The notes below the pieces were generated by a model, which was given only the letters and a program-made list of their open reading frames with translations, did no database searches and was not told where the DNA came from. DNA of 64,000 bases, taken from contig CACMJS010000003.1 of assembly GCA_902614085.1 (NCBI GenBank), positions 7,928 through 71,927 on the forward strand, written 5' to 3'. The translations under genes were made by a program, and so were the position numbers. Origin of the DNA: an uncultured Alphaproteobacteria bacterium. Lineage in GTDB: Bacteria > Pseudomonadota > Alphaproteobacteria > HIMB59 > GCA-002718135. Positions 10,745 through 48,018 of the stretch are shown in pieces (position 1 is the first letter of the stretch; every line of letters begins with the position of its first letter).

Positions 10745-11243
10745 AGATATTAATAATTATAACTCTGAAAAATTTATTGATTCTTTTGAAAATATTTTTG
10801 AAGAATCTAAATTTATAACAGAATATGCTGATAAAAAGCGACCATTTAAAAATAAAAAAGAAATGATATTAATATTTTTAGAGTTGTTTGATAATTTAGA
10901 TGCAGAAACTAAAATAAATATAATTAAAAAACATCCTGATCTAGCTGATAAAATAAAAATAAATAAAGGTTTGTCTGAATTATCTGATGAAGAACAAAGT
11001 AGATCTGGTTTAAAAGATTGTTCAGAACAAGAATTTAACTTATTTAAACATTTAAATTCAAGATTTAAAAATAAATTTAATATTCCATTTATTTTTGCAG
11101 TTAGAAATAAAAATAAAAATGAAATTATAACAGAGTTTAAAAGTAGATTAGAGAATAATGATTTAAACTTAGAAATAAAAACTTCAATTTCACAAGTAAA
11201 AGAAATTGCAAAATTAAGATTAACAGAATTAATTAATGAATAA
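10734..11243 (+). CDS. uraD: OHCU decarboxylase
   Basis: ENIFEES, HPDLA, SDEEQSRSGL, KFNIPFIFAVR. Likely start is ATG 10734 (the track extends the ORF to 10659). Confidence 0.9.
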   Translation: MKIEDINNYNSEKFIDSFENIFEESKFITEYADKKRPFKNKKEMILIFLELFDNLDAETKINIIKKHPDLADKIKINKGLSELSDEEQSRSGLKDCSEQEFNLFKHLNSRFKNKFNIPFIFAVRNKNKNEIITEFKSRLENNDLNLEIKTSISQVKEIAKLRLTELINE

Positions 11244-12213
11244 AAAATACATTCAAAAAAATTATATAAACTTATGTAGTAAGGTTTTAGGTTCAAAAAT
11301 TCATAGATTTTCTGATCAGTTTTTTGGATCAGCATCCAGATTGCTTAAAGAGGAAAAGCCAATTTTTAAAGAAGGAGTATACGATAAAAATGGGAAATGG
11401 ATGGATGGATGGGAAACAAGAAGAAAAAGAATTGAAGGAAATGATTATGTTACTATTAAATTAGGCCTTCCTGGTAAAATTAATTTTGCTGAAATAGACA
11501 CAAGTTATTTTAATGGCAATCAACCTGAATACGCAAGCATTGATGCTTGTTATTTTGAAAAAAATAAATTTAATTGGGTAAATATTTTATCAAAAAGGAA
11601 ACTTAATCCAAATTATGTTCATGGTTTTAAAACTCAACAGAATAATAAAGTTTTTAACTTCATAAGATTGAACATCTATCCAGATGGAGGAGTTGCAAGA
11701 TTAAAATTATTAGGAAATTTAGATGTATCAAAATTAAAATTTCCAAATAAAAAATTTGATTTACTGAGCATCCTTAATGGTTCAAAAATTGTGGCATGTA
11801 GTGATGAACATTTTGGACGGGCAGAAAATTTATTACTTCCATTTAAATCTAAAAATATGGGTAATGGCTGGGAAACTAAAAGAAGAAGAGGATCAGGATA
11901 TGACTGGGTTATAATTAAACTTGGCAAACCTGGTTTAATTGAAAAGTTTAATATTGAAACTCATTATTTTAAAGGTAATTATCCATCTCATTGCTCAGTA
12001 CAAGGTATTTATTCAATAAAAAATATAAATATAAGCAAATTAATAAGTGAAAGCAAAAATTGGAAATTTTTGATAAAAAATAAAAATCTTAAACCTAATT
12101 CATCATTAAAAATTAATTCAACTAAACAGATTAAAAAAATAAATTATTTGAAGTTAAATATTTATCCTGACGGTGGTATTTCACGGATCAGGGCAATTGG
12201 AAAGTTTTTGTGA
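11236..12213 (+). CDS. alc: Allantoicase
   Basis: Two repeated domains, each with D/NGWETxRxR and NIYPDGG; DTSYFNGN / ETHYFKGN. Confidence 0.95.
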   Translation: MNKKYIQKNYINLCSKVLGSKIHRFSDQFFGSASRLLKEEKPIFKEGVYDKNGKWMDGWETRRKRIEGNDYVTIKLGLPGKINFAEIDTSYFNGNQPEYASIDACYFEKNKFNWVNILSKRKLNPNYVHGFKTQQNNKVFNFIRLNIYPDGGVARLKLLGNLDVSKLKFPNKKFDLLSILNGSKIVACSDEHFGRAENLLLPFKSKNMGNGWETKRRRGSGYDWVIIKLGKPGLIEKFNIETHYFKGNYPSHCSVQGIYSIKNINISKLISESKNWKFLIKNKNLKPNSSLKINSTKQIKKINYLKLNIYPDGGISRIRAIGKFL

Positions 12214-12704
12214 TATATAAAATAAAGAATATTAGTAAAGAGAATTTCAAAAATTACGGTGATTTAATTACAACATCTAATAAAAATTATGAAAGTATTA
12301 ATAAAGATACAACCGAAAGTTTTTTTGATTTAGCAAATATTCAAATAATTGGTGATGACAAAAGATCTAGATTAAATATTTTTCAGGCAAAGAAAAGAAA
12401 CTTTCCATTAAAAATTAACATGTTAGAAAATCATCCTTTTAGTTCTCAAGTATTTCTTCCTTTTAATGCTACAGGTTTTTTAGTTTTAGTTGCTCCAATA
12501 GGTAACAAACCTAAAATTGATTTAATTGAAATATTCAAAGTAAGCGGTGGTGATGGTATAAATTTTAATCCCAAAGTATGGCATTTTCCTCTAATATCTC
12601 TTGAGAATGAAAAATATATTACCATTGATAAAAAAGATGCGGATAATAATATTGAGATTTATAATTTTGAACAATCAGAAATATTTGAATTAAATTATGA
12701 GTGA
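12210..12704 (+). CDS. allA: Ureidoglycolate lyase
   Basis: YGDLI, MLENHPFSSQVFLP, GINFNPKVWHFPL. Confidence 0.9.
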   Translation: MIYKIKNISKENFKNYGDLITTSNKNYESINKDTTESFFDLANIQIIGDDKRSRLNIFQAKKRNFPLKINMLENHPFSSQVFLPFNATGFLVLVAPIGNKPKIDLIEIFKVSGGDGINFNPKVWHFPLISLENEKYITIDKKDADNNIEIYNFEQSEIFELNYE

Positions 12705-33700: not shown

Positions 33701-33701
33701 A

Positions 33702-34589
33702 CTATTGTACAATCACTCTCTTAGAAAGATTTTTAATTTTTAAAAAATCACTCTTAGTTTTTAGACTTTTACCACTAGCATAATAAGACCCGCATGCTAC
33801 AGAAGTTTTCAAAATATAATTCATTTTTTCATTAATACTGAACAAATACAGCATCATAGCTGCTAGTGCGTCTCCAGCTCCATTTTCGTTTACTACTTTG
33901 ATTGATGGGGGTTTTATTTTTTTTATAAATTCATTACTTCCAAAGATTACATTATTTTTTGAATTAGTAGTAATTATTTTTATTTTTTTATTTTGTTTTA
34001 ATATTTTTTTTACACCTAATATTATATTTGAAGAATTTGTAAGTTTAAGTAACTCTGCTTTATTTAAGAATATAAAATCAACTTTATTTATAATCCTTTT
34101 AATTTTAATAACTTTATGCACTGATGTTGCGCACACTATAATTTTATTTTTTTTTGATAGTTTATTTATTGATTTTTCCAAATAGGTTTTAGAAAAATTT
34201 AGATCAAATATTATATTTTTATTCTTGATGTTTGGTATTTTTAAAGATTTATTATTTTCATATTCATCTGTGTTAGCTAATCCTAATAAAAATTTATTAT
34301 TTTTATCTGATAAAGCTAAATAGTATCTATCTGCATAATCTTTATTCACTTGATGAACATAGATTTTTTTTGAGATTTTTTTTCTAATCTCTTCATTGAT
34401 AGCTAAACTATAAAATTTTACATCAACAAAATTCGAAAGCAATTCTGCAATATTGTATGCCACTCCACCAATTCTGCTTTTTTGTGTAATTTGATTAGAT
34501 CTAAAATTAATAATATTTTTTTTAAGATTTAATAAATAATCGTGATGAATTGCCCCAATACAAACGAAAATGTTTTTAGATTTCAGCAT
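33702..34589 (-). CDS. psuK: PfkB-family kinase, probable pseudouridine kinase (divergent)
   Basis: IGA..D, GGVAYNIA, LNKAEL, NENGAGDAL anion-hole motif; coupled to psuG. Confidence 0.72.
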   Translation of the reverse strand: MLKSKNIFVCIGAIHHDYLLNLKKNIINFRSNQITQKSRIGGVAYNIAELLSNFVDVKFYSLAINEEIRKKISKKIYVHQVNKDYADRYYLALSDKNNKFLLGLANTDEYENNKSLKIPNIKNKNIIFDLNFSKTYLEKSINKLSKKNKIIVCATSVHKVIKIKRIINKVDFIFLNKAELLKLTNSSNIILGVKKILKQNKKIKIITTNSKNNVIFGSNEFIKKIKPPSIKVVNENGAGDALAAMMLYLFSINEKMNYILKTSVACGSYYASGKSLKTKSDFLKIKNLSKRVIVQ

Positions 34590-37500: not shown

Positions 37501-37620
37501 TTATTGAGCACTGATGGACCTTATGACAATGTTATTAAAATAAAGCCACCTCTTGTATTTACAAAATTAAATGTTGATCAGGTATGTAAAAACTTAGAAA
37601 CTTTCTTTAAAAAATTATAA
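34570..37620 (+). CDS. Three-domain fusion: aminoglycoside-phosphotransferase-like kinase, M23 metallopeptidase-like domain, class III PLP aminotransferase/phospho-lyase
   Basis: Kinase VLKISN, HSDPNNYN, LDYGD; M23 HLGID, YGHL, PHLHFQ; PLP domain YLDCVNN, GSEANDLA, DEVQTGFGR, LGKPMGNG. Real start is probably ATG 34591 or 34609. Confidence 0.9.
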   Translation: MFLDFSIMNYTPFMSVFDVDPPIIDNKHLIKWLKINFSFLRNKLLKIKQLDSERDINFIIFINNKKKYVLKISNPSENINILKYQDRLINYLRSDLSLKSFIPKIHHTKIVKYLDKKNRECFVRILSYIEGRMYGDTKSNDKIENSLGKLLGKVSTKLKAFNDIDAHRNFIWDPSNIKWIKKDINIFTGSKKLILLKCFSEYEKFVKNNLNKLRYSITHSDPNNYNIVIKENNVCGLLDYGDSIYSPTINDLAICLSYALMNNDNIYLTLKNIITEYNKQFSINEDEINSLISLCKSRLMITVVMAKKQRIKYPSNQYLSISEKDAWSLLEKLDKIPINFLIYIVREICGFDIIHHHNEIINYINKFNFGNIFKFNLLDKNKSILKLSSDSPLLKGNPDNISLKKRVNKIFKEDNSHIGIGLYNEKRKVYKGPNFISELNTNERRNIHLGIDIFIDQGTDLFAPIDGKIIILKNNNFKYDYGPTLVLEHSFKKYKFYTLYGHLSKIMFQKLKIGKKIKKGEWIGKIGNSNENGKWLPHLHFQIILDLLGHDKNFPGVGEKFLFNIWNKISPDPNLILRIPKSFYSNNNNFKDTLKKRKKNISDNLSISYKKPLHMLEAKDQYFFDRYGRRYLDCVNNISHVGHSNFYVHEAMTQQNLKLNTNTRYLYDTINDYSELLLSKFPKKLNKIFFVCTGSEANDLAYRIAQTYTSAKDVFVMDNAYHGHTNALIDLSPYKFNSKGGLGKKDYVHVLDMPDPLRGKWRYQNSNWIQKYIDEAKTVIRNKIKKTNIACFFTESILGCGGQVILPKNYLKEIFSEIRRNNALCIVDEVQTGFGRVGRHFWSFEEHDVIPDIVTLGKPMGNGHPIAAVITTEKIASTFNNGMEYFNSFGGNPVSCAIGKAVLETIDNNKLQKNALLVGNYFLKELKKIQLKYKKYISEVRGRGLFLGIDIIQNSNVSKPNKKLAKLLINYMRNQGILLSTDGPYDNVIKIKPPLVFTKLNVDQVCKNLETFFKKL

Positions 37621-38206
37621 AATATATTCCATAACTAATCATTAGCAGACCAATGGTTAGATCAATCCAAAACCAAGTTTTATTTGAATAAATATATTTT
37701 GACAAAAACTTTGACATATATCCCAAAGAAAAGAAAAACAAAAAACTAGCTGAAATTGCTCCAACGCCAAATGAAAATTGATCATTAAAATTTGTTGATA
37801 ATGATCCCAGCAAAATAATTGTATCTAGATAAACATGAGGATTAGCGTATGTAATAAGGAATAAGGTAATTAATACTTTACCGTATTCGTTAATTATATT
37901 TAATTTTTTATTTATATCTTTAATTTGATTTAATTTTATAACTTTATTTAATCCATAAAATATAAGCCAAATTCCACCTAATACTTTTATTATTCCTATG
38001 ATACTTGGATTAATTTGAACAATATAATTAGATAGATATATTCCAATTACAATTAGTAAACTGTCAGATAGACTGCAAAATAAAGTAACTGTAAAAACAT
38101 AAGATTTTTTAAGCCCTTGTTGAATTACAAATAAATTTTGCGGTCCTATGGCTATAATTAATGTTCCTCCAATTATTAATCCTTGGATAAAATCATAAAT
38201 ATACAT
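37607..38206 (-). CDS. LysE/ArgO family amino-acid exporter
   Basis: IAIGPQNLFVIQQGL, SDSLLI, NPHVYLDT. Confidence 0.92.
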   Translation of the reverse strand: MYIYDFIQGLIIGGTLIIAIGPQNLFVIQQGLKKSYVFTVTLFCSLSDSLLIVIGIYLSNYIVQINPSIIGIIKVLGGIWLIFYGLNKVIKLNQIKDINKKLNIINEYGKVLITLFLITYANPHVYLDTIILLGSLSTNFNDQFSFGVGAISASFLFFFSLGYMSKFLSKYIYSNKTWFWIDLTIGLLMISYGIYFIIF

Positions 38207-38242
38207 ATTGCCTTAAATTATAATTACACTATTTTAAAAAAT

Positions 38243-38701
38243 ATGCATAAAATTATATTGTTTAGTTTTTTTATTTTATTATCAAAAAGTGTTTATGGAG
38301 AAATGATAAAACCAGACCCTTCAATTGGTCCTAAAGAAGTTATTTTAATTCAATTAAAAGCACTACAAAAAAATAATTCACCTTTTGACGATGCCGGTAT
38401 TGAACAAACTTGGGAATTTGCACATCCAAATAATAGAATGTACACAGGTCCTCTAGACAATTTTATTAGGATGATTAAAAATCCATCATACTCAATGATG
38501 ATTGATCACTTAGAACACAATATAATTCCAGTTCAGGAACAAGAAAAAAGTTCATATTACTTTGTAGAGCTTACAGATAGTAATGGAAAAAAATTTGGTT
38601 TCGAATGGACAGTAGAAAAAGTAGAGCAAAACGGTGAGTTTAAAGATTGTTGGATGACCGTAGGTGTTTCTAGACCAATGCCTTTATCGCAAGCATCATA
38701 G
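38243..38701 (+). CDS. DUF4864-like secreted protein
   Basis: Signal peptide from ATG 38243, QLKALQ, WEFAHP, F..MI...Y..M, W; family recalled from pattern only. Confidence 0.65.
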   Translation: MHKIILFSFFILLSKSVYGEMIKPDPSIGPKEVILIQLKALQKNNSPFDDAGIEQTWEFAHPNNRMYTGPLDNFIRMIKNPSYSMMIDHLEHNIIPVQEQEKSSYYFVELTDSNGKKFGFEWTVEKVEQNGEFKDCWMTVGVSRPMPLSQAS

Positions 38702-39357
38702 TGTGCGGAAGATTTACAAGTACTGAAGATAAAGAAAAAATTATAAAAATTTTTCCTAACTCTGAAGTTTTAAATTACGCACATAAGTCTTACAATATAT
38801 CACCGTCTAATATTGTTAATATTATTTATGAAAACAATCATAAACTTTTAATAGATACTTTTATTTGGAGTTATAGTTTTTTTAGTAAACAAAATAATGT
38901 TACTCAATTTGTTATTAATGCAAGAATTGAAACAATTAATGATAAATATTTATTCAAAGAATCATTTACTAAAAGAAAATGTCTTATTATTGCAAATGGA
39001 TACTATGAATGGAAAAATATAAATAATCAAAAGCAACCATATTTAATATCAATTCCTAGAAATGAATTATTGTTTTTTGGTGGAATTTGGAGGGAAGAAA
39101 TAAGAGATAATAAAAAAATGAATGTTGTCTGTATCATTACTAAGGAAGCAAATGAAAACCTTTCCCATATACATAATAGAATGCCTCTTATTATGTCTCA
39201 TAATGAGGGTCTTGATTTTCTTAATGATAATGAAAATGAATTCCTACATAAAAACAAAAGTATTATCGAGGATGATTTAGACTTTTATCCAGTATCAAAA
39301 ATTGTAAATAATCCAAAAAATAATGATGAAAATTGCCTAAAGGAAATATCTTTATAA
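38701..39357 (+). CDS. SOS response-associated peptidase (SRAP/YedK/HMCES family)
   Basis: GTG start giving N-terminal MCGRF, YNISP, INARIET, GYYEW, HNRMP. Confidence 0.92.
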   Translation: MCGRFTSTEDKEKIIKIFPNSEVLNYAHKSYNISPSNIVNIIYENNHKLLIDTFIWSYSFFSKQNNVTQFVINARIETINDKYLFKESFTKRKCLIIANGYYEWKNINNQKQPYLISIPRNELLFFGGIWREEIRDNKKMNVVCIITKEANENLSHIHNRMPLIMSHNEGLDFLNDNENEFLHKNKSIIEDDLDFYPVSKIVNNPKNNDENCLKEISL

Positions 39358-39414: not shown

Positions 39415-40353
39415 ATGAGCCATTTATTTTATAAACCTGCTAAATCTAGATTGCACAGAAGTGAATTGGCTGTTCCAGGCTCTAATCCAAAGATGTTTGA
39501 AAAGGCATTAAAATCAAATGCTGATTATATTTTTTTAGATTTAGAAGATGCAGTATCCCCAAATGATAAAATTGATGCAAGAAAAAATGTTATTAATGCA
39601 ATAAAAGAATATAATTGGAGAGAAGAAGGTAAAACAATCTCTATAAGAATTAACGGCTTGGATACACATTATATGTATCGTGATGTGATTGAAATTATAG
39701 AAGAGGTCGGTGATAAGATTGATACATTATTAATTCCAAAAGTAGGCTCATCATCAGATGTGTATATGGTTGATTGTATGCTTAATCAAATTGAACAAAA
39801 TAAAAAATTTGAAAATAGAATAGGTTTAGAATGTTTAATTGAAACAGCACTAGGAATGTCTAATATCCAATTAATCGCAACATCAAGCTCAAGACTAGAA
39901 GCATTACACTTTGGAGTTGCCGATTATGCAGCAAGTATGCGAGCAAGAACGGTTGTCATAGGAGGTTTAAATCCTGATTATCCAGGTGATCAATGGCATC
40001 ATGGTTTATCAACTTTAGTAATGACCTGTAGATCATATGGCTTAAGAGCAATAGATGGGCCTTTTGGTGATTTTAATGACAAAGAAGGATATCTTGATGC
40101 AGCAAAAAGAGCTGCGGCAATTGGTTTTGAGGGTAAATGGGCAATACATCCATCGCAAATAGATTTAGCTAATGAAGTTTTTTCTCCACCCAAAGAAGAA
40201 ATAGATAAAGCAAAAAGAATATTATTAGAATTAGAAAAAGCAGCTTCTGAAGGAAAGGGTGCTGCTCAGCTTGATGGAAGAATGATCGATGCAGCATCTG
40301 CAAGAATGGCTGAAAATATTGTAAATATAAATAAATTAATAGAAAGTAAGTAA
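39415..40353 (+). CDS. mcl: Malyl-CoA lyase (Methylobacterium Mcl type)
   Basis: RLHRSELAVPGSNP, FLDLEDAV, RINGLDTHYMYRDV, FGVADYAAS, DGPFGDF, GKWAIHPSQ; followed by mtkAB. Confidence 0.88.
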   Translation: MSHLFYKPAKSRLHRSELAVPGSNPKMFEKALKSNADYIFLDLEDAVSPNDKIDARKNVINAIKEYNWREEGKTISIRINGLDTHYMYRDVIEIIEEVGDKIDTLLIPKVGSSSDVYMVDCMLNQIEQNKKFENRIGLECLIETALGMSNIQLIATSSSRLEALHFGVADYAASMRARTVVIGGLNPDYPGDQWHHGLSTLVMTCRSYGLRAIDGPFGDFNDKEGYLDAAKRAAAIGFEGKWAIHPSQIDLANEVFSPPKEEIDKAKRILLELEKAASEGKGAAQLDGRMIDAASARMAENIVNINKLIESK

Positions 40354-41513
40354 TGGACATCCACGAATATCAAGCAAAAAAAATATTATCTGATTTTGGT
40401 GTCAAAATTCCCACAGGTGGCATTGTTTATAGTCCGGAAAATGCAGAAAATAAAGCTAGAGAAATTGGCGGTTCAAAATGGGTTGTGAAAGCACAGATTC
40501 ATTCTGGAGCAAGAGGTAAAGCTGGAGGGATAATTATTTGCAATTCTCCTCATGAAGTTGCTTTAGCAACTGAAAAACTTCTTGGAAAAAAATTAGTGAC
40601 AAATCAAACTGGTGAAGAGGGAAAAATTGTAAATAGAATTTATATTGAAGAAGCAACAGATATTAAACATGAATTATATTTAGGATTGGTTTTTGATAGG
40701 CCTTCAGAGAGTATTATGGTTGTTGCTTCAACTGAAGGTGGAATGAGTGTAGAAGAAATTTCTAAGGATAAACCAGAAAGTATAATGAGATTAAAAATTG
40801 ATGTTGCAGTAGGTATGAGAAAATTTCAAGCCAGAGAATTAGCTTTTGGTCTTGGAATAGAAACTGAATTAATTTCAAAAGCTACTGATACAATTCGAGG
40901 TTGTTATAGAGCTTTCACTGATCTTGATGCAACAATGGTCGAGGTAAATCCTCTTGTAATTTCTAAACAAAATGAAATTTTGGCTTTAGATTGTAAAATG
41001 AGTTTTGATAATAATGCTTTATTCAGAATGAATAATATTGCTGAACTTCGTGATAAAAGTCAGGAAAATCCTAATGAAGTTTATGCTTCAGATAGAGGAA
41101 TGAATTACGTCAGTCTAAATGGAAATATTGGAAATATTATTAATGGAGCAGGCCTAGCTATGGCTTCAATGGACATGATAAAGCTAGCGGGTGGTGAACC
41201 TGCAAACTTTTTAGATGTTGGGGGAGGTGCAACTCCTGAGAAAATAGTTAAAGCTTTTAAATTAATTTCTATGGATACAAAAGTTAAGGTAATTTTAGTT
41301 AATATTTTTGCAGGGATTAACAGATGTGATTGGGTTGCAGAAGGAATTGTTCAAGCTTTATCAAAAATTGAAATTAAACATCCTTTAGTTATACGTTTAG
41401 CTGGAACTAACGTTGAAAAGGGAAATGAAATACTTAAAAAAAGCAATATTAATTACATTGAAGCATCAACTTTAGAAGATGCAGCAAATAAAGCAGTAAA
41501 GGCTCTTGGATAA
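40353..41513 (+). CDS. mtkA: Malate--CoA ligase (malate thiokinase) beta subunit
   Basis: SucC fold with Mtk-type variants GARGKAGG and IFAGINRCDWVAEG rather than GGRGKAGG / IFGGIVRCD. Confidence 0.82.
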   Translation: MDIHEYQAKKILSDFGVKIPTGGIVYSPENAENKAREIGGSKWVVKAQIHSGARGKAGGIIICNSPHEVALATEKLLGKKLVTNQTGEEGKIVNRIYIEEATDIKHELYLGLVFDRPSESIMVVASTEGGMSVEEISKDKPESIMRLKIDVAVGMRKFQARELAFGLGIETELISKATDTIRGCYRAFTDLDATMVEVNPLVISKQNEILALDCKMSFDNNALFRMNNIAELRDKSQENPNEVYASDRGMNYVSLNGNIGNIINGAGLAMASMDMIKLAGGEPANFLDVGGGATPEKIVKAFKLISMDTKVKVILVNIFAGINRCDWVAEGIVQALSKIEIKHPLVIRLAGTNVEKGNEILKKSNINYIEASTLEDAANKAVKALG

Positions 41514-41515
41514 TA

Positions 41516-42412
41516 ATGTCTATAATCATTCATAAAAATACAAAGATTTTAGTTCAAGGCTTTACTGGAAAAATTGGGAGTTTTCATGCTGAAGAAATGA
41601 TTAAGTATGGTTCAAATGTTGTTGGTGGGGTAACGCCTGGTAAAGGTGGTATCACTCATTTAAATCTTCCTGTTTTTAACACTGTCAAAGAAGCTGTTGA
41701 TCAAACAGGAGCATCAACATCAATATTATTTGTCCCTCCAGCATTTGCAGCAGACTCAGTTATGGAAGCTGCTGATGCAGGTATTAAAACGTGTGTGGCT
41801 ATTACTGACGGTATTCCTTCTCATGATATGGTTAAAATTAAAAGATTTATGAGAAGATATCCAAAAGATAAAAAAATGGGATTAGTAGGTCCTAATTGTG
41901 CAGGAATAATTAGTCCTGGTAAATCTATGTTAGGTATTATGCCTGGTCATATTTACAAAGAAGGTAAAATAGGAATAGTTAGTAGATCTGGCACTTTGGG
42001 ATATGAAGCTGCACAACAACTTAAAGATTTGGAAATTGGTGTTTCAACAAGTGTAGGTATAGGAGGCGATCCAATAAATGGAAGTTCTTTTAGTGATATA
42101 ATTGAAAAGTTTGAAAATGATGATGAAACTATTGCAGTTTTAATGATAGGTGAAATAGGAGGTCCACAAGAAGTTGAAGCTGGACAATTTGCTAAAGAAA
42201 ATATGAGTAAACCAGTAATTGCGTATATAGCAGGACTAACTGCACCAAAAGGTCGTGTAATGGGGCATGCTGGCGCAATTGTTTCTGCTTATGGTGAAAG
42301 TGCAATAGAAAAAGTAGAACTTCTTAAAGAGTGTGGAGTTACAATTTCCAAAAACCCTTCTGTAATGGGTGAAACTGTTAAAAAAGTATTAGTAGAAAAT
42401 AATTTGAATTAA
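41516..42412 (+). CDS. mtkB: Malate--CoA ligase alpha subunit (SucD-like)
   Basis: VGGVTPGKGG, KRFMRRYP, GPNCAGIISPGKSMLGIMPGHIY, SRSGTLGYE, GLTAPKGRVMGHAGA (phospho-His). Confidence 0.82.
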   Translation: MSIIIHKNTKILVQGFTGKIGSFHAEEMIKYGSNVVGGVTPGKGGITHLNLPVFNTVKEAVDQTGASTSILFVPPAFAADSVMEAADAGIKTCVAITDGIPSHDMVKIKRFMRRYPKDKKMGLVGPNCAGIISPGKSMLGIMPGHIYKEGKIGIVSRSGTLGYEAAQQLKDLEIGVSTSVGIGGDPINGSSFSDIIEKFENDDETIAVLMIGEIGGPQEVEAGQFAKENMSKPVIAYIAGLTAPKGRVMGHAGAIVSAYGESAIEKVELLKECGVTISKNPSVMGETVKKVLVENNLN

Positions 42413-42427
42413 TATAATTAAAAAATA

Positions 42428-42565
42428 ATGAAATTTTTATATAAAAATGAATTCTGGATGTTAATATTTTCTCTAGGTGTTCTTTATTGGTTATTTAATC
42501 CATCAGTCTTAACAACCTTAGTTATGATTGTGCCATTGCTATTGGCTGTTTCTTCCCGTAAATAA
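42428..42565 (+). CDS. Small 45-aa membrane protein, missing from the ORF track
   Basis: ATG to TAA, MKFLYKNEFWMLIFSLGVLYWLFNPSVLTTLVMIVPLLLAVSSRK; two short hydrophobic segments; fills the mtkB-phosphatase gap. Confidence 0.55.
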   Translation: MKFLYKNEFWMLIFSLGVLYWLFNPSVLTTLVMIVPLLLAVSSRK

Positions 42566-42620
42566 AGCTAAGTTTTATACTTACTGATGCATGAACGTTT
42601 ATCGTGTTTATAGTTAAAAA

Positions 42621-43184
42621 ATGAAATTATATCTTATTAGACATGCAGAGTCAGAAGCTAATGCAGCATCAGATTTAGATAATCCAACTTATTATTATGA
42701 TGCAAGAATTACTCAAAGAGGAGTTGAGCAAGCAAAAAAATTAAATAACAGAATTAAAAATATCAAATTTGATAATTATTTTTGCTCCCCCTTAACAAGA
42801 ACATTGGAAACATTCTCTATTGTTTTTCCATCTAATAAACCTGTAATTGAACCATTAATAAGAGAACATTTGTACCACTCATGTGATGTAGGAAGACAAC
42901 CAAAAAAATTAAAAAAAGAATTTAATGATTTTGATTTTAATAATTTAAATGATTTTTGGTGGAATAATAATAAACCTATTAATGAAAAAAAAATTATACA
43001 AGAGTCTCACAATGATATTAAAATTAGATTAAGGTCTTTTCTACTATCTATCAAAAACCTTAATTTACAAAAAATTGTATTAGTCAGTCATGGTACATTC
43101 TTAAGTCAAATAACTGAATATATGCTGGATAACTGTGAGGTATATGATTGTGAGTACAACGAGGTATACGAAAAATTTTTTTAA
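42621..43184 (+). CDS. Histidine phosphatase (phosphoglycerate mutase-like) family protein
   Basis: LIRHAES, LT..G..QA, SPLTR, RE, VSHG. Confidence 0.88.
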   Translation: MKLYLIRHAESEANAASDLDNPTYYYDARITQRGVEQAKKLNNRIKNIKFDNYFCSPLTRTLETFSIVFPSNKPVIEPLIREHLYHSCDVGRQPKKLKKEFNDFDFNNLNDFWWNNNKPINEKKIIQESHNDIKIRLRSFLLSIKNLNLQKIVLVSHGTFLSQITEYMLDNCEVYDCEYNEVYEKFF

Positions 43185-43207
43185 TTTAATTCTTGATAAA
43201 TAAAAAT

Positions 43208-43975
43208 CTAAAACATCTCATTTATTATTTTATTTAATTTTTGTGTTACTCTATCAATTATTTTTTTTCCTATCTGTGCATTGGATTTTCTAGGATCTCC
43301 AATAATTCCACTTTTACTTAATTCTTTAGTTACCCAAGCTTTCTTAATATTTTTCTCATAAGAAATGGTTTTAGTTGATAAATAATCGGAAGATAATCTA
43401 TGTTTAGAAATTTTAGATTGCCTAACTAGGTTTGGAAATAAATACAACATAATAGATGTTTCAAATTCTCCGCCGTGATAACCAAAGTCTTTTTCTTTAC
43501 TTGATATGATTCCTTTAAATTGATCAAATAAAAAATATGTGCCTTTTACTATGTTTATCTTAAATTCTGATTTCAATTCTTTAGCAATAATATCTATATG
43601 ACTAATTTGTCCACCATGACTATTTAAAAGTAATATATTTTTAAATTTCAATTTACATACATTTTCTAAAATTGACAAAGAGTGGGATATAAATTCCAAT
43701 GAATCTATACTTATTGTTCCATCAAAATCTGTATGTTCAGCAGCTGAACCAAAATATATTTCAGGCATAATTAAATATTTATTTGAATTATATTTTTTAT
43801 TGAATTCTAATAATATTCCTTCAAGAATTTTTTTATCAGTATTTAATGGAAGATGCGGACCGTGTTGTTCTATTGATGAGAATGGGAAAATTAAAACTGT
43901 TTTTCTATTTATTTTTTTAATTTCATTTGTTGTTAATTCTTCCCAAAAGTTTGTTAGCATTTTTTTATTATACAT
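43208..43975 (-). CDS. Creatininase/ArfB-family amidohydrolase
   Basis: EQHGPHLPLNTD, SAAEH..F.GTIS, NSHGG, HGGEFETS, GIIGDP. Start may be ATG 43960. Confidence 0.9.
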   Translation of the reverse strand: MYNKKMLTNFWEELTTNEIKKINRKTVLIFPFSSIEQHGPHLPLNTDKKILEGILLEFNKKYNSNKYLIMPEIYFGSAAEHTDFDGTISIDSLEFISHSLSILENVCKLKFKNILLLNSHGGQISHIDIIAKELKSEFKINIVKGTYFLFDQFKGIISSKEKDFGYHGGEFETSIMLYLFPNLVRQSKISKHRLSSDYLSTKTISYEKNIKKAWVTKELSKSGIIGDPRKSNAQIGKKIIDRVTQKLNKIINEMF

Positions 43976-43988
43976 TTATAAGTAAATT

Positions 43989-44948
43989 ATGAAATCTTAT
44001 TCTTTATGGATTGATAAAAAAAAACAAGCTAAAATTTATCAAAAAAAACTTGTTTACAATAAAAATAACAAAACAGTTTTAGTTAAAACTATTTACTCAG
44101 GTATTAGCAAGGGAACTGAAAAATTAGTTTCATCTAAAAGCGTAAGTAAGGATCAATTTGAATTAATGAAAGCCCCTTTTCAAGAGGGTTCTTTTAATTT
44201 ACCTATAAAATACGGTTATATAAATGTTGGGAATATTATCGATGGTCCAAGGAAATATATAAATAAAAAAATATTTAGTTTTTACCCTCATCAGGATTTA
44301 TATGAAATTTCTATTCAAAATTTAATTTTTTTACCAAAAGGAAATTTGAGAAAATATGTTCTAACTGCAAATATGGAAACAGCAATTAATATCTTTTGGG
44401 ACGCTCAATCTAAAAGTAATAACAAAATTCTAATTGTAGGACTTGGCTCTGTAGGATTATTAACTGCATTTTTTTTTAAAATTAATGGATATAAAAATGT
44501 TTATGTTTTTGATAATAATAAAAATAAAAGAAAAATTGCCAACTATTTAGGATTAAATTTTATTGATATAAGAAAGATTGAGAAAATAGATGTAGCAATA
44601 AACACTACAGCTAATTATAAAGTTTTAAATTCTTTAATGGAAAAATTATCTATCGAAGGAAAAATAGTAGAAGCTAGTTGGTATGGTAAAAATAAAGGAG
44701 AAGTTGCCTTGGGTGGGTATTTTCATTCTAAAAGATTAAAAATTATTAGCTCACAGGTATCTAAAATACCAAAATACATGAAAAATAAATATGATTTTGA
44801 GGGGAGATTAAAATTAGCAATTAAATCTTTAAAAAATTCACGATTAGAAAAATTAATTACTAGTGAAAGTAATTTTTTTGATTTAGAAAAAGATTACTAT
44901 AAAATCCTTAAAAATAAGGATACAATAATGCATCTAGTTAAATATTAA
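43989..44948 (+). CDS. MDR-superfamily NAD(P)-dependent dehydrogenase of the PTPS-IV cluster
   Basis: VKTIYSGISKGTE, PIKYGY, HQD, ANMETAIN, VGLGSVG, EASWYG, FHSKRLKIISSQV. Confidence 0.82.
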   Translation: MKSYSLWIDKKKQAKIYQKKLVYNKNNKTVLVKTIYSGISKGTEKLVSSKSVSKDQFELMKAPFQEGSFNLPIKYGYINVGNIIDGPRKYINKKIFSFYPHQDLYEISIQNLIFLPKGNLRKYVLTANMETAINIFWDAQSKSNNKILIVGLGSVGLLTAFFFKINGYKNVYVFDNNKNKRKIANYLGLNFIDIRKIEKIDVAINTTANYKVLNSLMEKLSIEGKIVEASWYGKNKGEVALGGYFHSKRLKIISSQVSKIPKYMKNKYDFEGRLKLAIKSLKNSRLEKLITSESNFFDLEKDYYKILKNKDTIMHLVKY

Positions 44949-44950
44949 TT

Positions 44951-45349
44951 ATGTATTCGATAAAAGTAAGAGAAAATATTCTAATAGCTCATTCTTTACC
45001 TGGAGAAGTATTTGGGCCAGCCCAAAATATGCATGGAGCTACATATTTAGTTGATGCAGAATTTTTCACTGATAAACTTAATAATTACAATATAATTATG
45101 GATTTAGGAATAGTTTCCAAAACTTTAAAAGATATTCTTAAAATATATAATTATCAAAATTTAGATGAAATTGATGAATTTAAAGGAAAAATTACCTCAA
45201 CAGAGTTTTTAGCAGAAGATATTTGTAATAAGATCTTAAATAGACTAAGAAACGAATTTTCTGAAGATTACAAATCTTTAAAAAAAATTAAAATAACCTT
45301 GCAAGAATCAAATGTTGCATGGGCATCATATGAAAAAGAGGTTGTCTAA
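44951..45349 (+). CDS. 6-pyruvoyl-tetrahydropterin synthase-like protein, PTPS-IV subtype (COG0720)
   Basis: IAHSLPGEVFGPAQNMHGATY, NLD, STEFLA, ESNVAWASY; lacks the CxxxHGH motif of QueD. Confidence 0.85.
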   Translation: MYSIKVRENILIAHSLPGEVFGPAQNMHGATYLVDAEFFTDKLNNYNIIMDLGIVSKTLKDILKIYNYQNLDEIDEFKGKITSTEFLAEDICNKILNRLRNEFSEDYKSLKKIKITLQESNVAWASYEKEVV

Positions 45350-46376
45350 AAATAAATCTGATATTTATTTTGTTTATCCAGGAAATATTAATGCAAAAAC
45401 TGGAGGATACATTTATGAAAAAAATATCCTAGAATATGCAAAGATAAGAGATATAAATATTAGACCAATTGCTCTAAGTGAAAATTATCCTTTTCCTACA
45501 AATAACGATATAAAATACTTTCTAAAAATTTTAGATAAAATTGATCCTGACTCAAAAATTATTATAGATGGATTAGCTTTAGAGGGAATGTATTCAATTT
45601 TTAAAAAAATACTTACTTATAATATTATCGCACTAATACATCATCCTTTATATCTTGAATTTAAAGGTCAAAGGTCAAAAAAATTCTTAAGATTAGAAAA
45701 AGAAAATTTCAAAAAAATAAATAAATTTATTGTGACTTCTAAAAATACAAAAAATTTATTAATAAATGAATTTAAGGTGCTAAATAATAAAATATCTGTA
45801 GTTGAACCTGGTATAGAAAGACTATCAAAATATAATTTTAAAAATAATAGTAAAATTCATCTTTTAACATGTGGAAGTATAATAAATAGAAAAAATTATC
45901 TTTTTTTATTAAAAGTTTTAAAGCCTTTAGATAATTTTATTTTAGAAATTGTTGGTGATACTACAAGAGATATAAGTTATTACAAAAAACTCAAAAAATT
46001 TATTTCTAAAAATTCAATGAACAGAAAAATAATATTCCATGGTGTTATTTCAGATACAAAATTAGCTAAACTATATTCTAAAACAGATTGTTACATTTCT
46101 GTAAGTAAATATGAAGGTTTTGGTATGTCTTTAGCTAATGCATTAATAATTAAAAAGCCAATTGTAACTTTTTTTACTAATACTATCTTAAATACATTAG
46201 GAAAAAAGGGTATTATTTATTTTAAAAAATTTGAAGTAAATGATCTTAGAAATATAATTATTAAAAATATATTAAATAAGAAAAATTTTAAAAAACTAAA
46301 TATAAATATTCATAAAAATAAAAGATATCTTCTTACTCCTCAAGAGTCAGCAAAGAAATTTGTTAAATTAATTTAA
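45330..46376 (+). CDS. Glycosyltransferase family 4
   Basis: TGGYIYE, DGLA, HHPL, EPG, RKNY, YEGFGMSL. Start uncertain (45312, 45330 or 45342). Confidence 0.85.
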   Translation: MKKRLSKNKSDIYFVYPGNINAKTGGYIYEKNILEYAKIRDINIRPIALSENYPFPTNNDIKYFLKILDKIDPDSKIIIDGLALEGMYSIFKKILTYNIIALIHHPLYLEFKGQRSKKFLRLEKENFKKINKFIVTSKNTKNLLINEFKVLNNKISVVEPGIERLSKYNFKNNSKIHLLTCGSIINRKNYLFLLKVLKPLDNFILEIVGDTTRDISYYKKLKKFISKNSMNRKIIFHGVISDTKLAKLYSKTDCYISVSKYEGFGMSLANALIIKKPIVTFFTNTILNTLGKKGIIYFKKFEVNDLRNIIIKNILNKKNFKKLNINIHKNKRYLLTPQESAKKFVKLI

Positions 46377-46377
46377 T

Positions 46378-47166
46378 ATGCATGAATTTCAAAATAAATG
46401 GTTAAATCTTAGAGAAACTGTCGATAGAAATTCAAGAAACATAAGAATACTATATTTAATTAATAAATTTTTTAAAAATAAAAAAAATATTAGAATAATT
46501 GATTTAGGTTCAGGTGCTGGATCTAATTATAGATTTCTTAAGTCGCGATTATTAAATATTCAATATTGGTCTTTTGTAGACATATCACATCAATCAACAA
46601 ATTATTTTAAAAAAAATATAAAATTATCATCTAAAATAAAAAAAACTAATTTTAAAATTGTTGATGTAATTAATAGTCTAGAAAAAATAAATTTTAATGA
46701 TTATGATTTAGTTACTGGATCTGCTTTTTTAGATATTCTTCCAAAAACATGGTTTAAAAATTTTCATAAATTAAATCTTGATACAGAAATTGTCTACTTT
46801 GCATTAAATTATAACGGTAATTTTAAATTTTTTCCAAAACACAAGGATGATAAAAAAATTCTTAATTTTTTTAATAAAGATCAAAAATCTGACAAAGGAG
46901 TAGGGGAAGTGGCCGTTGGACCAGATTGTACTGAATTAATAAATAATGTATTTGAAAGAACCCACAAAACATATGTTTTAGACTCTACATGGAATGTTAG
47001 TAAAAATTATGAATTTCAAATTTATTTCTTAAATTTTTGTAGAGAAATTATTCAAAAAAATAAACTTAACTTAGATGATTGGTTAAAATTTCGTTTAAAA
47101 TGTATTAAAGAAAAAAATTCCAGATTTATTTTAAATAATACAGATTTTTTAGCTATTAAGAAATAA
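46378..47166 (+). CDS. Class I SAM-dependent methyltransferase-like protein
   Basis: WLNLRETVD, motif I IIDLGSGAGSN, WSFVD, VTGSAFLD, ALNYNG. Confidence 0.8.
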   Translation: MHEFQNKWLNLRETVDRNSRNIRILYLINKFFKNKKNIRIIDLGSGAGSNYRFLKSRLLNIQYWSFVDISHQSTNYFKKNIKLSSKIKKTNFKIVDVINSLEKINFNDYDLVTGSAFLDILPKTWFKNFHKLNLDTEIVYFALNYNGNFKFFPKHKDDKKILNFFNKDQKSDKGVGEVAVGPDCTELINNVFERTHKTYVLDSTWNVSKNYEFQIYFLNFCREIIQKNKLNLDDWLKFRLKCIKEKNSRFILNNTDFLAIKK

Positions 47167-47982
47167 ATTAACTATAATTTCATTTTCTAATTCATTAAAA
47201 TTATGTTTCGGTCTCATAGCTTTATTGAGATTTGAGATTTCTTTTAAATTTAATGAATTAATTCCGGAACCTATTAATATTGGTGCAATCATAAATTGAA
47301 GAATATCAATATATTTATTATTTATGAATTCTGAAATAGTTTTTGATCCTCCCTCTACTAAAATATTTTTATAATTAAGTTTTTTTATTTGCGTAATTAA
47401 GTTTTTAGTAAAATTTTTTTCTTTTAATCTTATTATTATGGAATTATTCAATCTAATTTTTTTATTACTTTTTGTAAAAACTATATTTTCATTACCATCA
47501 TTAAATATTTTATATTTATTATTTAACGAAAGACTGCCATCAATAATAATTCTTTTTGGATTTGTGCCCTTTATTTTTCTTGTTGTTAATAGGGGATCGT
47601 CTTTTTTAATAGTATTTGAACCTACAATAATTGCATCACTGATACTTCGTAAACAATGTAGATAAATAATACTCTTGGGATTATTTATGTAATGTGAATT
47701 ACCATTATTTAATGCAATTCTACCATCAATACTTTGTCCTATCTGAGCTATAACTAATTTTTTGTTTTTTCTTAATATCGGCATCAGGATATTTAAGATT
47801 GATTGATAAAATTTACTAATATTAATTTTAGATACCAGATTTTTATTTTTTATGTAAAAGTTACTTTTTGTTTTTGATGTTAAAGAAATACTATTTTTTT
47901 TAACCAATAAATATAAATCATTATTCTTTTTAGAATTTTTTATGAAATCTAATAAAATTCCTATATTTTTTGATGTTATCAT
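47149..47982 (-). CDS. RibD C-terminal reductase-domain protein (no deaminase domain)
   Basis: AQIGQSIDGRIA, HCLRSISDAIIVG, DDPLLT, LVEGG, APILIGSG. Confidence 0.9.
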   Translation of the reverse strand: MITSKNIGILLDFIKNSKKNNDLYLLVKKNSISLTSKTKSNFYIKNKNLVSKINISKFYQSILNILMPILRKNKKLVIAQIGQSIDGRIALNNGNSHYINNPKSIIYLHCLRSISDAIIVGSNTIKKDDPLLTTRKIKGTNPKRIIIDGSLSLNNKYKIFNDGNENIVFTKSNKKIRLNNSIIIRLKEKNFTKNLITQIKKLNYKNILVEGGSKTISEFINNKYIDILQFMIAPILIGSGINSLNLKEISNLNKAMRPKHNFNELENEIIVNLFLNS

Positions 47983-48018
47983 TTGTTTTTATTATTATTA
48001 TATCTATATAAAGTTTTC

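What the first reader, a model, noticed from the sequence alone, without database searches (positions are those of the whole stretch)
39415..42412. Serine-cycle-type mcl-mtkAB in a streamlined heterotroph: possible ATP-conserving sink for purine-derived glyoxylate
Seen: an operon of Methylobacterium-type Mcl and a CoA ligase with Mtk-specific motifs, with no other serine-cycle gene beside it. Established: Mtk plus Mcl interconvert malate + CoA + ATP with acetyl-CoA + glyoxylate, and both steps are reversible in vitro; AllA (12.2 kb) releases glyoxylate. Inference, two alternatives: forward, it makes glyoxylate (hence glycine) from malate; reverse, it assimilates glyoxylate with acetyl-CoA and recovers ATP, replacing malate synthase, which wastes the thioester.
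Basis: partly seen in the sequence, partly recalled or inferred. Interest (0 to 1): 0.55.

Follow-up and report, generated by a model that had tools for sequence, protein, structure and literature searches.

The report
Malyl-CoA lyase plus malate thiokinase operon
Three tightly packed genes in this small-genome ocean bacterium (AEGEAN-169 / "SAR11 subclade V") encode a well-known enzyme pair that interconverts malate with glyoxylate plus acetyl-CoA; here the pair was probably acquired from true SAR11 and seems to stand in for the missing malate synthase, but the enzymes are ordinary and already annotated in public data.

Summary
Window 39415-42412 carries mcl-mtkA-mtkB. Mcl best matches the Methylobacterium extorquens enzyme. 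The ligase beta subunit passes NCBI's malate-CoA ligase cut-off and groups with Hyphomicrobium/Aminobacter MtkA, not SucC.

No malate synthase, isocitrate lyase, glyoxylate carboligase, Sga/BhcA-type aminotransferase, PEP carboxylase or Ccr was found in this 96%-complete genome. There is therefore no serine cycle, and Mcl-Mtk is the only recognised glyoxylate-assimilating route.

In the same genus, 30 of 30 Mtk-positive genomes lack malate synthase, and 6 of 7 Mtk-negative ones have it. In three of those, the cassette is part of a 9.7-kb insertion/deletion. The cassette is 79-86% identical to Pelagibacteraceae copies while neighbouring housekeeping genes are 37-65%, and tree tests support transfer.

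In true SAR11, however, the cassette co-exists with malate synthase (21 of 23). It often sits beside ppc, pyc or serC, which fits the opposite direction. Direction therefore remains inferred, and the link to purine-derived glyoxylate is plausible but not specific.

This scan had already found the same cassette in three other genomes. It is a new member of a known kind, of moderate interest.

The parts
39415..40353 (+). [quoted passage not shown]
   Evidence: HpcH_HpaI and C-C_Bond_Lyase domains. 388 bits to M. extorquens Mcl 5UGR. 97-99% identical in congeners and 78-82% in Pelagibacteraceae.
40353..41513 (+). mtkA: malate--CoA ligase beta (ATP-grasp) subunit (386 aa)
   Evidence: NF010647 625.5 bits, over the 604 cut-off. 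MtkA clade has 100 SH-aLRT support against SucC-like rows. 63-66% identical to Hyphomicrobium/Aminobacter MtkA and 38% to the genome's own SucC. Nine clade-diagnostic residues.
41516..42412 (+). mtkB: malate--CoA ligase alpha subunit (298 aa)
   Evidence: SucD-family models and CoA_binding plus Ligase_CoA domains. GHAGAI phosphohistidine motif; 54% identical to the genome's own SucD.
40465..41215 (+). Mosaic tract inside mtkA (about aa 37-290)
   Evidence: G000 and L028 are 75-88% nt identical to congeners here, against 94-99% in the flanks. This points to an imported allele segment.
39415..49140 (.). About 9.7-kb segment (cassette plus 8 further genes) absent from malate-synthase-positive congeners
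   Evidence: In L020, L021 and L023 (G020, G019, G021), homologs of window 31779-39357 are followed directly by homologs of 49143-58966.
11236..12704 (+). Allantoicase and ureidoglycolate lyase: a glyoxylate source encoded in the same window
   Evidence: TIGR02961 356 bits, over its cut-off. Ureidoglycolate lyase models 138 bits and PF04115 126 bits.

Best explanation
The operon encodes a genuine malyl-CoA lyase (Mcl) and malate-CoA ligase (MtkAB). They catalyse: malate + CoA + ATP <-> malyl-CoA + ADP + Pi <-> acetyl-CoA + glyoxylate.

In this AEGEAN-169 (GTDB genus AG-337-I02, order HIMB59) genome the pair is not part of a serine cycle. It most likely works as the cell's only glyoxylate-assimilating route. 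Mcl condenses glyoxylate with acetyl-CoA, and MtkAB releases malate while conserving the thioester as ATP. The glyoxylate could come from ureidoglycolate lyase in purine breakdown, and perhaps from glycolate or other sources. The pair thus takes the place of the malate synthase that Mtk-negative members of the genus carry.

The module is near equilibrium, so mass action sets the net direction. With no other sink, glyoxylate would push it towards malate.

The cassette was probably acquired horizontally from Pelagibacteraceae (true SAR11) as part of a variable 9.7-kb segment.

Shown: gene identity, paralogy with sucCD, gene content, distribution, synteny and phylogeny. Inferred: substrate specificity, direction and ATP gain.
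For: Identity:
- establish the three genes as Mcl and MtkAB.
- A separate mdh-sucCD-sucA operon exists.

No alternative glyoxylate route found in G000 (96% complete):
- malate synthase
- ICL
- glyoxylate carboligase over cut-off
- Sga/BhcA homolog; the only hit is PhnW
- Mcl2-type thioesterase paralog; the other HpcH proteins are HpaI/GarL-type aldolases

No serine or ethylmalonyl-CoA cycle: no Ppc and no Ccr.

Glyoxylate source: the xdhAB-PuuE-allantoicase-AllA cluster is in the window.

Distribution in the genus: 30 of 30 Mtk-positive genomes lack malate synthase. Of 7 Mtk-negative genomes, 6 have malate synthase G. No ICL was found in any of 46 family genomes, so malate synthase there is a pure glyoxylate sink.

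Synteny: three malate-synthase-positive congeners lack window 39415-49140 between conserved flanks.

Transfer:
- The cassette is 79-86% identical to Pelagibacteraceae copies, while flanking housekeeping genes are 37-65%.
- AG-337-I02 rows nest inside Pelagibacteraceae rows.
- An AU test rejects monophyly of the HIMB59-order rows (p = 3e-13).

Precedent: Mcl run in the condensing direction gives an 'apparent malate synthase' in R. sphaeroides and M. extorquens (PMC2948502).
Against: - In true SAR11 the cassette co-exists with malate synthase: 21 of 23 Mtk-positive genomes in a sample of 201. It co-exists with ICL in 4 of 5 genomes checked. It is therefore not generally a substitute.
- In other marine lineages it is fused into operons with OAA-forming carboxylases or serC: ppc in L051 and G001, pyc in G050. 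This is the serine-cycle (cleavage) arrangement. G000 has Pyc and Mdh, so cleavage is also possible here.
- Mutual exclusion would also arise if Mtk/Mcl ran forward, because malate synthase would then close a futile cycle.
- The exclusion may reflect a single evolutionary event. An AU test does not reject monophyly of the Mtk-positive rows on a flanking-gene tree (p = 0.07).
- Two relatives (G018, G039) have AllA but neither sink.
- Thermodynamics, from textbook values recalled by me: at a high ATP/ADP ratio, ATP-forming condensation needs glyoxylate comparable to or above malate. The driving force is small.
- No expression or enzyme data exist.
Confidence: 0.5

Rival explanations
1. Forward (serine-cycle) direction. 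Pyruvate is carboxylated to OAA (Pyc), reduced to malate (Mdh), activated by MtkAB and split by Mcl. This gives acetyl-CoA plus glyoxylate without CO2 loss. The glyoxylate is aminated to glycine or used otherwise.
For: - This is the established role of Mtk/Mcl in methylotrophs, and the closest non-marine relatives sit in sga-hprA-ppc clusters.
- Marine relatives link the cassette to ppc, pyc or serC, and one SAR11 context lies beside methylamine (N-methylglutamate pathway) genes.
- G000 has Pyc and Mdh.
- Co-existence with malate synthase in SAR11 shows the cassette adds something malate synthase cannot do.
- At high energy charge, cleavage is the thermodynamically easier direction (my recollection of standard values).
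- Malate is the most concentrated of the serine-cycle metabolites monitored in M. extorquens (PMC2948502).
Against: - G000 lacks Ppc and any Sga/BhcA-type glyoxylate aminotransferase.
- It has SerC and a SerA-like gene (SerC over its family cut-off, SerA-like below its cut-off), so glycine need not come from glyoxylate.
- Without another sink, the glyoxylate produced would have no recognised fate.
- The relatives that lack the cassette carry malate synthase, which is an irreversible consumer, not a producer.
Confidence: 0.25
2. Bidirectional buffer. The near-equilibrium pair simply equilibrates the malate, acetyl-CoA and glyoxylate pools and has no fixed physiological direction. It consumes glyoxylate during purine or glycolate use and supplies it at other times.
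For: - Both enzymes are reversible in vitro (established knowledge).
- The cassette is found both with and without malate synthase/ICL.
- It sits in at least four unrelated genomic contexts.
- No regulator or riboswitch lies beside it.
Against: The strict exclusion with malate synthase inside the genus suggests overlap with one defined function. Otherwise this reading is hard to tell apart from the other two without flux data.
Confidence: 0.15
3. Other substrates. The lyase works mainly on beta-methylmalyl-CoA or citramalyl-CoA (propionyl-CoA or pyruvate chemistry), and the ligase activates another C4/C5 dicarboxylate.
For: [quoted passage not shown] Weaker matches go to itaconate-degradation RipC and CitE models.
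Against: No mesaconyl-CoA hydratase, Ccr or CoA-transferase partner lies beside it. The ligase passes the malate-CoA ligase equivalog cut-off. The RipC and CitE scores are far below their cut-offs.
Confidence: 0.05

Closest known systems
MtkAB + Mcl(A) of serine-cycle methylotrophs (Methylobacterium/Methylorubrum extorquens AM1; Hyphomicrobium, Aminobacter)
   Same: Orthologous proteins. Mcl scores 388 bits to 5UGR. MtkA is 63-66% identical to Hyphomicrobium/Aminobacter copies, falls in the same clade and passes NF010647. The genes are adjacent.
   Different: No sga, hprA-type neighbour, ppc or Ccr. The host is a 1.65-Mb heterotroph without a serine or ethylmalonyl-CoA cycle. The likely net direction is the opposite one.
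Apparent malate synthase: Mcl1 + Mcl2 ((3S)-malyl-CoA thioesterase) of Rhodobacter sphaeroides and M. extorquens (Erb et al. 2010, as cited in PMC2948502)
   Same: Mcl condenses glyoxylate with acetyl-CoA to malyl-CoA in an organism that lacks malate synthase.
   Different: Here no Mcl2-type paralog exists. Malyl-CoA would be released by an ADP-forming ligase, conserving the thioester as ATP instead of hydrolysing it.
Malate synthase G (GlcB) of Mtk-negative AG-337-I02 congeners and of SAR11
   Same: Same net carbon conversion (glyoxylate + acetyl-CoA -> malate). The two are mutually exclusive within the genus.
   Different: Unrelated single enzyme, irreversible, no ATP gain. In SAR11 it co-exists with the cassette. 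No glycine riboswitch precedes either gene in this genus.
Succinyl-CoA synthetase SucCD
   Same: Same fold and two-subunit architecture, same phosphohistidine chemistry. About 400 bits to E. coli SucC.
   Different: A distinct paralog: 38% (beta) and 54% (alpha) identical to the genome's own SucCD. It forms a separate clade. The housekeeping copy lies in mdh-sucCD-sucA.
Synthetic reverse glyoxylate shunt / malyl-CoA-glycerate pathway (e.g. PMC5964204)
   Same: Uses Ppc/Pyc-Mdh-Mtk-Mcl to turn C3 + CO2 into acetyl-CoA + glyoxylate. The natural operons mcl-mtkAB-ppc (SAR11, G001) and mcl-mtkAB-pyc (G050) look like this.
   Different: Those are engineered pathways. G000 itself has no ppc, and its pyc is unlinked.

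Membership tests
Malate--CoA ligase MtkAB (EC 6.2.1.9) | Beta subunit scores above the curated equivalog cut-off (NCBIfam NF010647) | tested here: met
   625.5 bits against a cut-off of 604. The genome's own SucC scores 413, and none of the 14 control genomes passes the cut-off.
Malate--CoA ligase MtkAB (EC 6.2.1.9) | Groups with MtkA of serine-cycle methylotroph genera, apart from SucC | tested here: met
   MtkA clade of 37 rows has 100 SH-aLRT support against 14 SucC-like rows that include the genome's own SucC. A single 50%-identity cluster representative scores 517 bits and the next hit 399 bits.
Malate--CoA ligase MtkAB (EC 6.2.1.9) | Paired alpha subunit with catalytic phosphohistidine loop | tested here: met
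   MGHAGAI motif aligned with the genome's own SucD. SucD-family models score 425 bits. No Mtk-specific alpha model was available.
Malate--CoA ligase MtkAB (EC 6.2.1.9) | Second copy alongside a housekeeping SucCD | tested here: met
   mdh-sucC-sucD-sucA on C1:344372-348550.
Malate--CoA ligase MtkAB (EC 6.2.1.9) | Preference for L-malate over succinate | not testable with these tools
   Only sequence signatures are available: nine clade-diagnostic residues, including A320 and N323 in the IFGGI-type loop. That this loop lines the succinate site of SCS is my recollection and was not tested.
[quoted passage not shown] | CitE/HpcH TIM-barrel with the C-terminal C-C_Bond_Lyase segment, and closest to characterised Mcl | tested here: met
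   PF03328 133 bits and PF15617 41.9 bits. 5UGR 388 bits and 4L9Y 283 bits, well above citrate lyase beta hits at 115 bits or less.
[quoted passage not shown] | Passes a curated equivalog model | tested here: inconclusive
   NCBIfam holds only a haloarchaeal Mcl model (139 bits, cut-off 500). No bacterial model is in the library.
Serine cycle | Serine-glyoxylate aminotransferase (Sga) | tested here: not met
   tblastn with two Sga-like proteins from methylotroph-type loci finds only a 21%-identical gene, which is PhnW.
Serine cycle | PEP carboxylase | tested here: not met
   No tblastn hit at E < 1e-5 with SAR11 or methylotroph-type Ppc. Pyruvate carboxylase is present instead.
Serine cycle | Hydroxypyruvate reductase and glycerate kinase | tested here: inconclusive
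   Several D-2-hydroxyacid dehydrogenase paralogs are 30-34% identical to an HprA-like query. Glycerate kinase was not searched.
Ethylmalonyl-CoA pathway | Crotonyl-CoA carboxylase/reductase | tested here: not met
   Best TIGR01751 hit is 40.8 bits against a cut-off of 378.
Glyoxylate shunt | Isocitrate lyase and malate synthase | tested here: not met
   No PF00463 or PF01274 match in G000. ICL was found in 0 of 46 genomes of the family.
Mcl1 + Mcl2 apparent malate synthase | Malyl-CoA thioesterase paralog (Mcl2) | tested here: not met
   The other HpcH_HpaI hits in G000 are HpaI/GarL-type aldolases, plus one weak 23-bit hit.

The most novel reading that the evidence does not exclude
Within one genus of the abundant AEGEAN-169 bacterioplankton, a horizontally acquired Mcl-MtkAB cassette (donor: SAR11) displaced malate synthase G. 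It now runs 'backwards' as an ATP-yielding malate synthase bypass. This would be a natural case of substrate-level phosphorylation on glyoxylate assimilation, trading driving force for energy yield in an energy-limited oligotroph.
Probability: 0.35. Interest if true: 0.6.

Novelty: new member of a known kind. Interest (0 to 1): 0.42.

Why it matters
AEGEAN-169 and SAR11 are among the most abundant heterotrophs in the surface ocean. How they dispose of glyoxylate from glycolate, purines and other algal products bears on marine carbon flux.

The main genomic study of AEGEAN-169 says the clade mostly lacks the glyoxylate shunt and discusses only aceB and ghrA (PMC10308909). Full-text searches found no paper that links malyl-CoA enzymes with SAR11 or HIMB59 metabolism.

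If the cassette really replaces malate synthase and recovers ATP, metabolic models of these organisms need correcting. It would also be a natural example of a yield-over-rate solution.

If it runs forward, about a tenth of the sampled SAR11 species own a carbon-conserving C3+CO2 -> 2 C2 route. In nature that route is known only as part of the serine cycle; as a stand-alone route it has only been engineered.

Tried and rejected
- **glcB-locus replacement.** I asked whether the glcB locus of malate-synthase-positive congeners is the site where the cassette sits (in-situ replacement). It is not: no synteny between those loci and the window.
- **Glycine riboswitch.** I looked for one before mcl or before the congeners' glcB, as in Pelagibacter. 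There is none. The genome's single glycine riboswitch precedes gcvT.
- **Promoter/terminator scan of the operon.** Fewer hits than in shuffled sequence, so uninformative.
- **AllA against the sinks.** I tested whether AllA presence tracks the presence of a sink in the family. It does not discriminate: true AllA is present in 34 of 46 genomes of both kinds, and two genomes have AllA with neither sink.
- **Number of gain/loss events.** I tried to count events on a flanking-gene tree. The topology suggests interleaving (SH-aLRT 93), but an AU test does not reject a single Mtk-positive clade (p = 0.07).
- **GlcD-like oxidase.** The hit on C1 (336 bits, below cut-off, no GlcE/GlcF beside it) could not be called glycolate oxidase.
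- **'These are the only sucCD genes'.** Rejected.
- **'Part of a serine or ethylmalonyl-CoA cycle'.** Rejected for this genome.
Full report
**What is there**

Window 39415-42412 holds three same-strand ORFs of 312, 386 and 298 aa, with a 1-nt overlap and a 2-nt gap.
- **ORF1 (mcl).** It has the HpcH_HpaI and C-C_Bond_Lyase domains. [quoted passage not shown] R. sphaeroides Mcl1 follows at 283 bits and Chloroflexus MCL at 153 bits.
- **ORF2 (mtkA).** It scores 625.5 bits on NCBIfam NF010647, 'malate--CoA ligase subunit beta' (cut-off 604).
- **ORF3 (mtkB).** It is a SucD-family alpha subunit with the phosphohistidine loop GHAGAI.
- **Upstream region.** The 57-nt stretch is AT-rich and holds no Rfam element.
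- **Neighbours.** They are unrelated to C1 or C2 metabolism: a LysE-type exporter, a DUF4864 protein, an SRAP peptidase, a His phosphatase and a creatininase-fold protein.

**Not the TCA-cycle enzyme**

The genome (1.65 Mb, 11 contigs, 96% complete) has a second SucC-type gene in an mdh-sucC-sucD-sucA operon on contig C1. The two beta subunits are 38% identical and the alpha subunits 54%. The housekeeping SucC scores only 413 bits on the Mtk model.

A tree of 51 rows was built, with these results:
- The window protein falls in an MtkA clade (100 SH-aLRT) with Hyphomicrobium, Aminobacter and Pseudaminobacter sequences. This clade is separate from 14 SucC-like rows that include the genome's own SucC.
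- A search of 1.84 billion cluster representatives gives one representative at 517 bits, then a gap to 399 bits.
- Nine positions are shared by at least 36 of 37 MtkA rows and by none of the SucC-like rows.

Substrate specificity itself cannot be tested here.

**Who carries it**

Close homologs are named 'malate--CoA ligase subunit beta [Pelagibacteraceae bacterium]' in NCBI. The 91%-identical copy lies in single-cell genome AG-337-I02. That name is also a GTDB genus of order HIMB59, the AEGEAN-169 group or 'SAR11 subclade V' (PMC8692485).

The order-level search fits this placement. It returns two families, one of them a single genus that includes a closed 1.4-Mb genome.

**Gene content**

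None of the following was found in the genome:
- malate synthase
- isocitrate lyase
- crotonyl-CoA carboxylase/reductase
- glyoxylate carboligase over its cut-off
- PEP carboxylase
- an Sga/BhcA-type aminotransferase; the only weak hit is PhnW
- an Mcl2-type thioesterase; the other HpcH proteins are HpaI/GarL-type aldolases

Present are:
- pyruvate carboxylase and malate dehydrogenase
- SerC, over its family cut-off, and a SerA-like gene that stays below its cut-off
- a glycine riboswitch before gcvT
- in the window itself, xdhAB, PuuE, allantoicase and ureidoglycolate lyase, which release glyoxylate

The serine cycle, the ethylmalonyl-CoA pathway and the glyoxylate shunt are therefore all absent. 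Mcl-Mtk is the only recognised way to assimilate glyoxylate.

**Distribution in relatives**

The GTDB family has 46 genomes at 80% completeness or better.
- Mtk passes its cut-off in 31 of them: 30 of the same genus, plus G001.
- Malate synthase occurs in 12, and ICL in none.
- Inside the genus, none of the 30 Mtk-positive genomes has malate synthase.
- Of the 7 Mtk-negative genomes in the genus, 6 have malate synthase G. G018 has neither.
- G001, of another genus, has both.

Relatives are not independent. On a tree of a 1016-aa flanking gene, the malate-synthase-positive G002 branches between two Mtk-positive lineages (SH-aLRT 93). However, an AU test does not reject one Mtk-positive clade (p = 0.07). 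One displacement event cannot be excluded.

**Synteny**

The glcB loci of malate-synthase-positive congeners are not syntenic with the window.

At the window's own locus, G019, G020 and G021 keep homologs of 31779-39357 directly next to homologs of 49143-58966. The cassette plus eight more genes (39415-49140, 9.7 kb) is thus an insertion/deletion.

**Origin**

Cassette proteins are 79-86% identical to those of true Pelagibacteraceae. The housekeeping genes that flank the cassette in those SAR11 genomes (his genes, ftsK, HIT) are only 37-65% identical to their orthologs in this genome. In this genome the his operon lacks the cassette.

In the MtkA tree, the AG-337-I02 rows (97) nest within the Pelagibacteraceae rows (97). 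G001 and the HIMB59-family copy (L084/G050) lie outside. An AU test rejects monophyly of all HIMB59-order rows (p = 3e-13). For the family-level rows the result is borderline (p = 0.059).

The cassette sits in at least four different contexts across these lineages. Transfer between SAR11 and AG-337-I02 is the simplest reading. I infer the direction, SAR11 as donor, from the nesting only.

**Evidence that cuts the other way**

In a sample of 201 Pelagibacteraceae species:
- 23 have Mtk over the cut-off
- 193 have malate synthase
- 21 of the 23 Mtk-positive genomes also have malate synthase
- ICL is present in 4 of 5 Mtk-positive genomes checked

These counts include the unpublished genomes G072 (locus L062) and G119. 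G072 is one of the two Mtk-positive genomes without a malate synthase hit, and L062 is one row of the tree. Removing them does not change the conclusions.

Several marine operons add an OAA-forming carboxylase or serC:
- mcl-mtkAB-ppc beside N-methylglutamate-pathway genes in SAR11 (L051)
- mcl-mtkAB-serC-ppc in G001
- mcl-mtkAB-pyc in G050

The nearest non-marine relatives sit in sga-hprA-ppc clusters. These arrangements fit the cleavage (serine-cycle) direction. Mutual exclusion with malate synthase would also follow from avoiding a futile cycle.

AllA does not discriminate either. A true copy is in 34 of 46 family genomes of both kinds, and G018 and G039 have AllA with neither sink.

**Mechanism and direction**

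Both reactions are reversible (established knowledge). Mcl in the condensing direction already gives an 'apparent malate synthase' with the thioesterase Mcl2 in R. sphaeroides and M. extorquens (PMC2948502).

From textbook values that I recall, not computed here:
- Malate synthase is about -44 kJ/mol and ATP hydrolysis about -30 kJ/mol.
- Condensation coupled to ATP formation is then only about -10 to -15 kJ/mol under standard conditions.
- It is close to zero at physiological ATP/ADP.

Direction should therefore follow the glyoxylate/malate ratio. This agrees with the report that malate is the most concentrated of the serine-cycle metabolites monitored in M. extorquens and that Mtk is 'energetically demanding'.

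This genome has sources of glyoxylate and no other sink or aminotransferase. Net flux towards malate is the best-supported reading, at about 0.5. The forward reading is at about 0.25 and a bidirectional buffer at about 0.15.

**Known or new**

The enzymes are textbook and correctly annotated in public records. The scan had already reported the same cassette in three other genomes (e1-4926599, e1-2316234, e1-5148600), with the same 'stands in for malate synthase' idea.

The searched literature does not describe it. Three papers hold 'malyl-CoA lyase' together with 'SAR11'; in the one I opened, the two terms are unrelated. No paper holds 'malyl-CoA' with HIMB59 or 'malate thiokinase' with Pelagibacter. 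The AEGEAN-169 genomics paper discusses only aceB, aceA and ghrA.

- the genus-level exclusion pattern
- the 9.7-kb insertion/deletion
- the evidence for transfer from SAR11
- the co-existence with malate synthase in SAR11
- the ppc/pyc/serC linkages

Verdict: a real operon, a new member of a known kind, and of moderate interest.

Noticed in passing
window 40465-41215 (inside mtkA): This genome and AG-899-F03 (L028) carry a tract of about 750 nt that is only 75-88% identical to congeners, while the rest of the cassette and the flanks are 94-99% identical. It looks like an imported allele segment covering the ATP-grasp domain. It explains why MtkA is 90-91% identical to congeners while Mcl and MtkB are 97-99%.
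   Followed up: partly
window 42621-49140: The other eight genes of the 9.7-kb insertion/deletion are a His phosphatase, a creatininase-fold hydrolase, an ADH-like protein, a PTPS/QueD-like protein, a GT4 glycosyltransferase, a methyltransferase-like protein, a RibD_C reductase and a GTP cyclohydrolase II with an N-terminal extension of about 190 aa. Together they look like a pathway from GTP to a modified or glycosylated pterin- or flavin-like compound.
   Followed up: no
window 42430-42567: A 45-codon, strongly hydrophobic ORF lies in the gap between mtkB and the His phosphatase gene.
   Followed up: no
L051:251-10760 (Pelagibacteraceae SAG AG-414-D15): In one SAR11 context, mcl-mtkAB is followed by ppc and preceded by genes of the N-methylglutamate/gamma-glutamylmethylamide methylamine pathway (GXGXG, GATase, GlnA-like, DAO). 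This is a serine-cycle-like neighbourhood in a group thought to oxidise C1 compounds for energy only.
   Followed up: partly
L109:4472-11447 (G001) and L084:5040-11605 (G050): Other HIMB59-order genomes have mcl-mtkAB-serC-ppc and mcl-mtkAB-pyc operons. G001 also has malate synthase A.
   Followed up: partly
L078:5060-8059, also L077 and L079: In a third SAR11-type context, a TauD-family dioxygenase, not mcl, lies directly upstream of mtkAB, with DUF3604 and GST-like genes before it.
   Followed up: no
L015-L019 (glcB loci of malate-synthase-positive congeners): No glycine riboswitch precedes malate synthase in these AEGEAN-169 genomes, unlike the conserved arrangement reported for Pelagibacter. 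The one glycine riboswitch of this genome precedes gcvT.
   Followed up: yes
L061 and L077: Contigs carrying SAR11-type cassettes (82-86% identical) are filed under a 'Dokdonia sp.' MAG and a 'Gammaproteobacteria' MAG. They are probably mis-binned SAR11 contigs.
   Followed up: no
window 34570-37620: A 1016-aa fusion of an N-terminal part with a class-III aminotransferase domain (PRK06148 type, 1020 bits, just under its cut-off) is conserved next to the insertion/deletion in all congeners.
   Followed up: no
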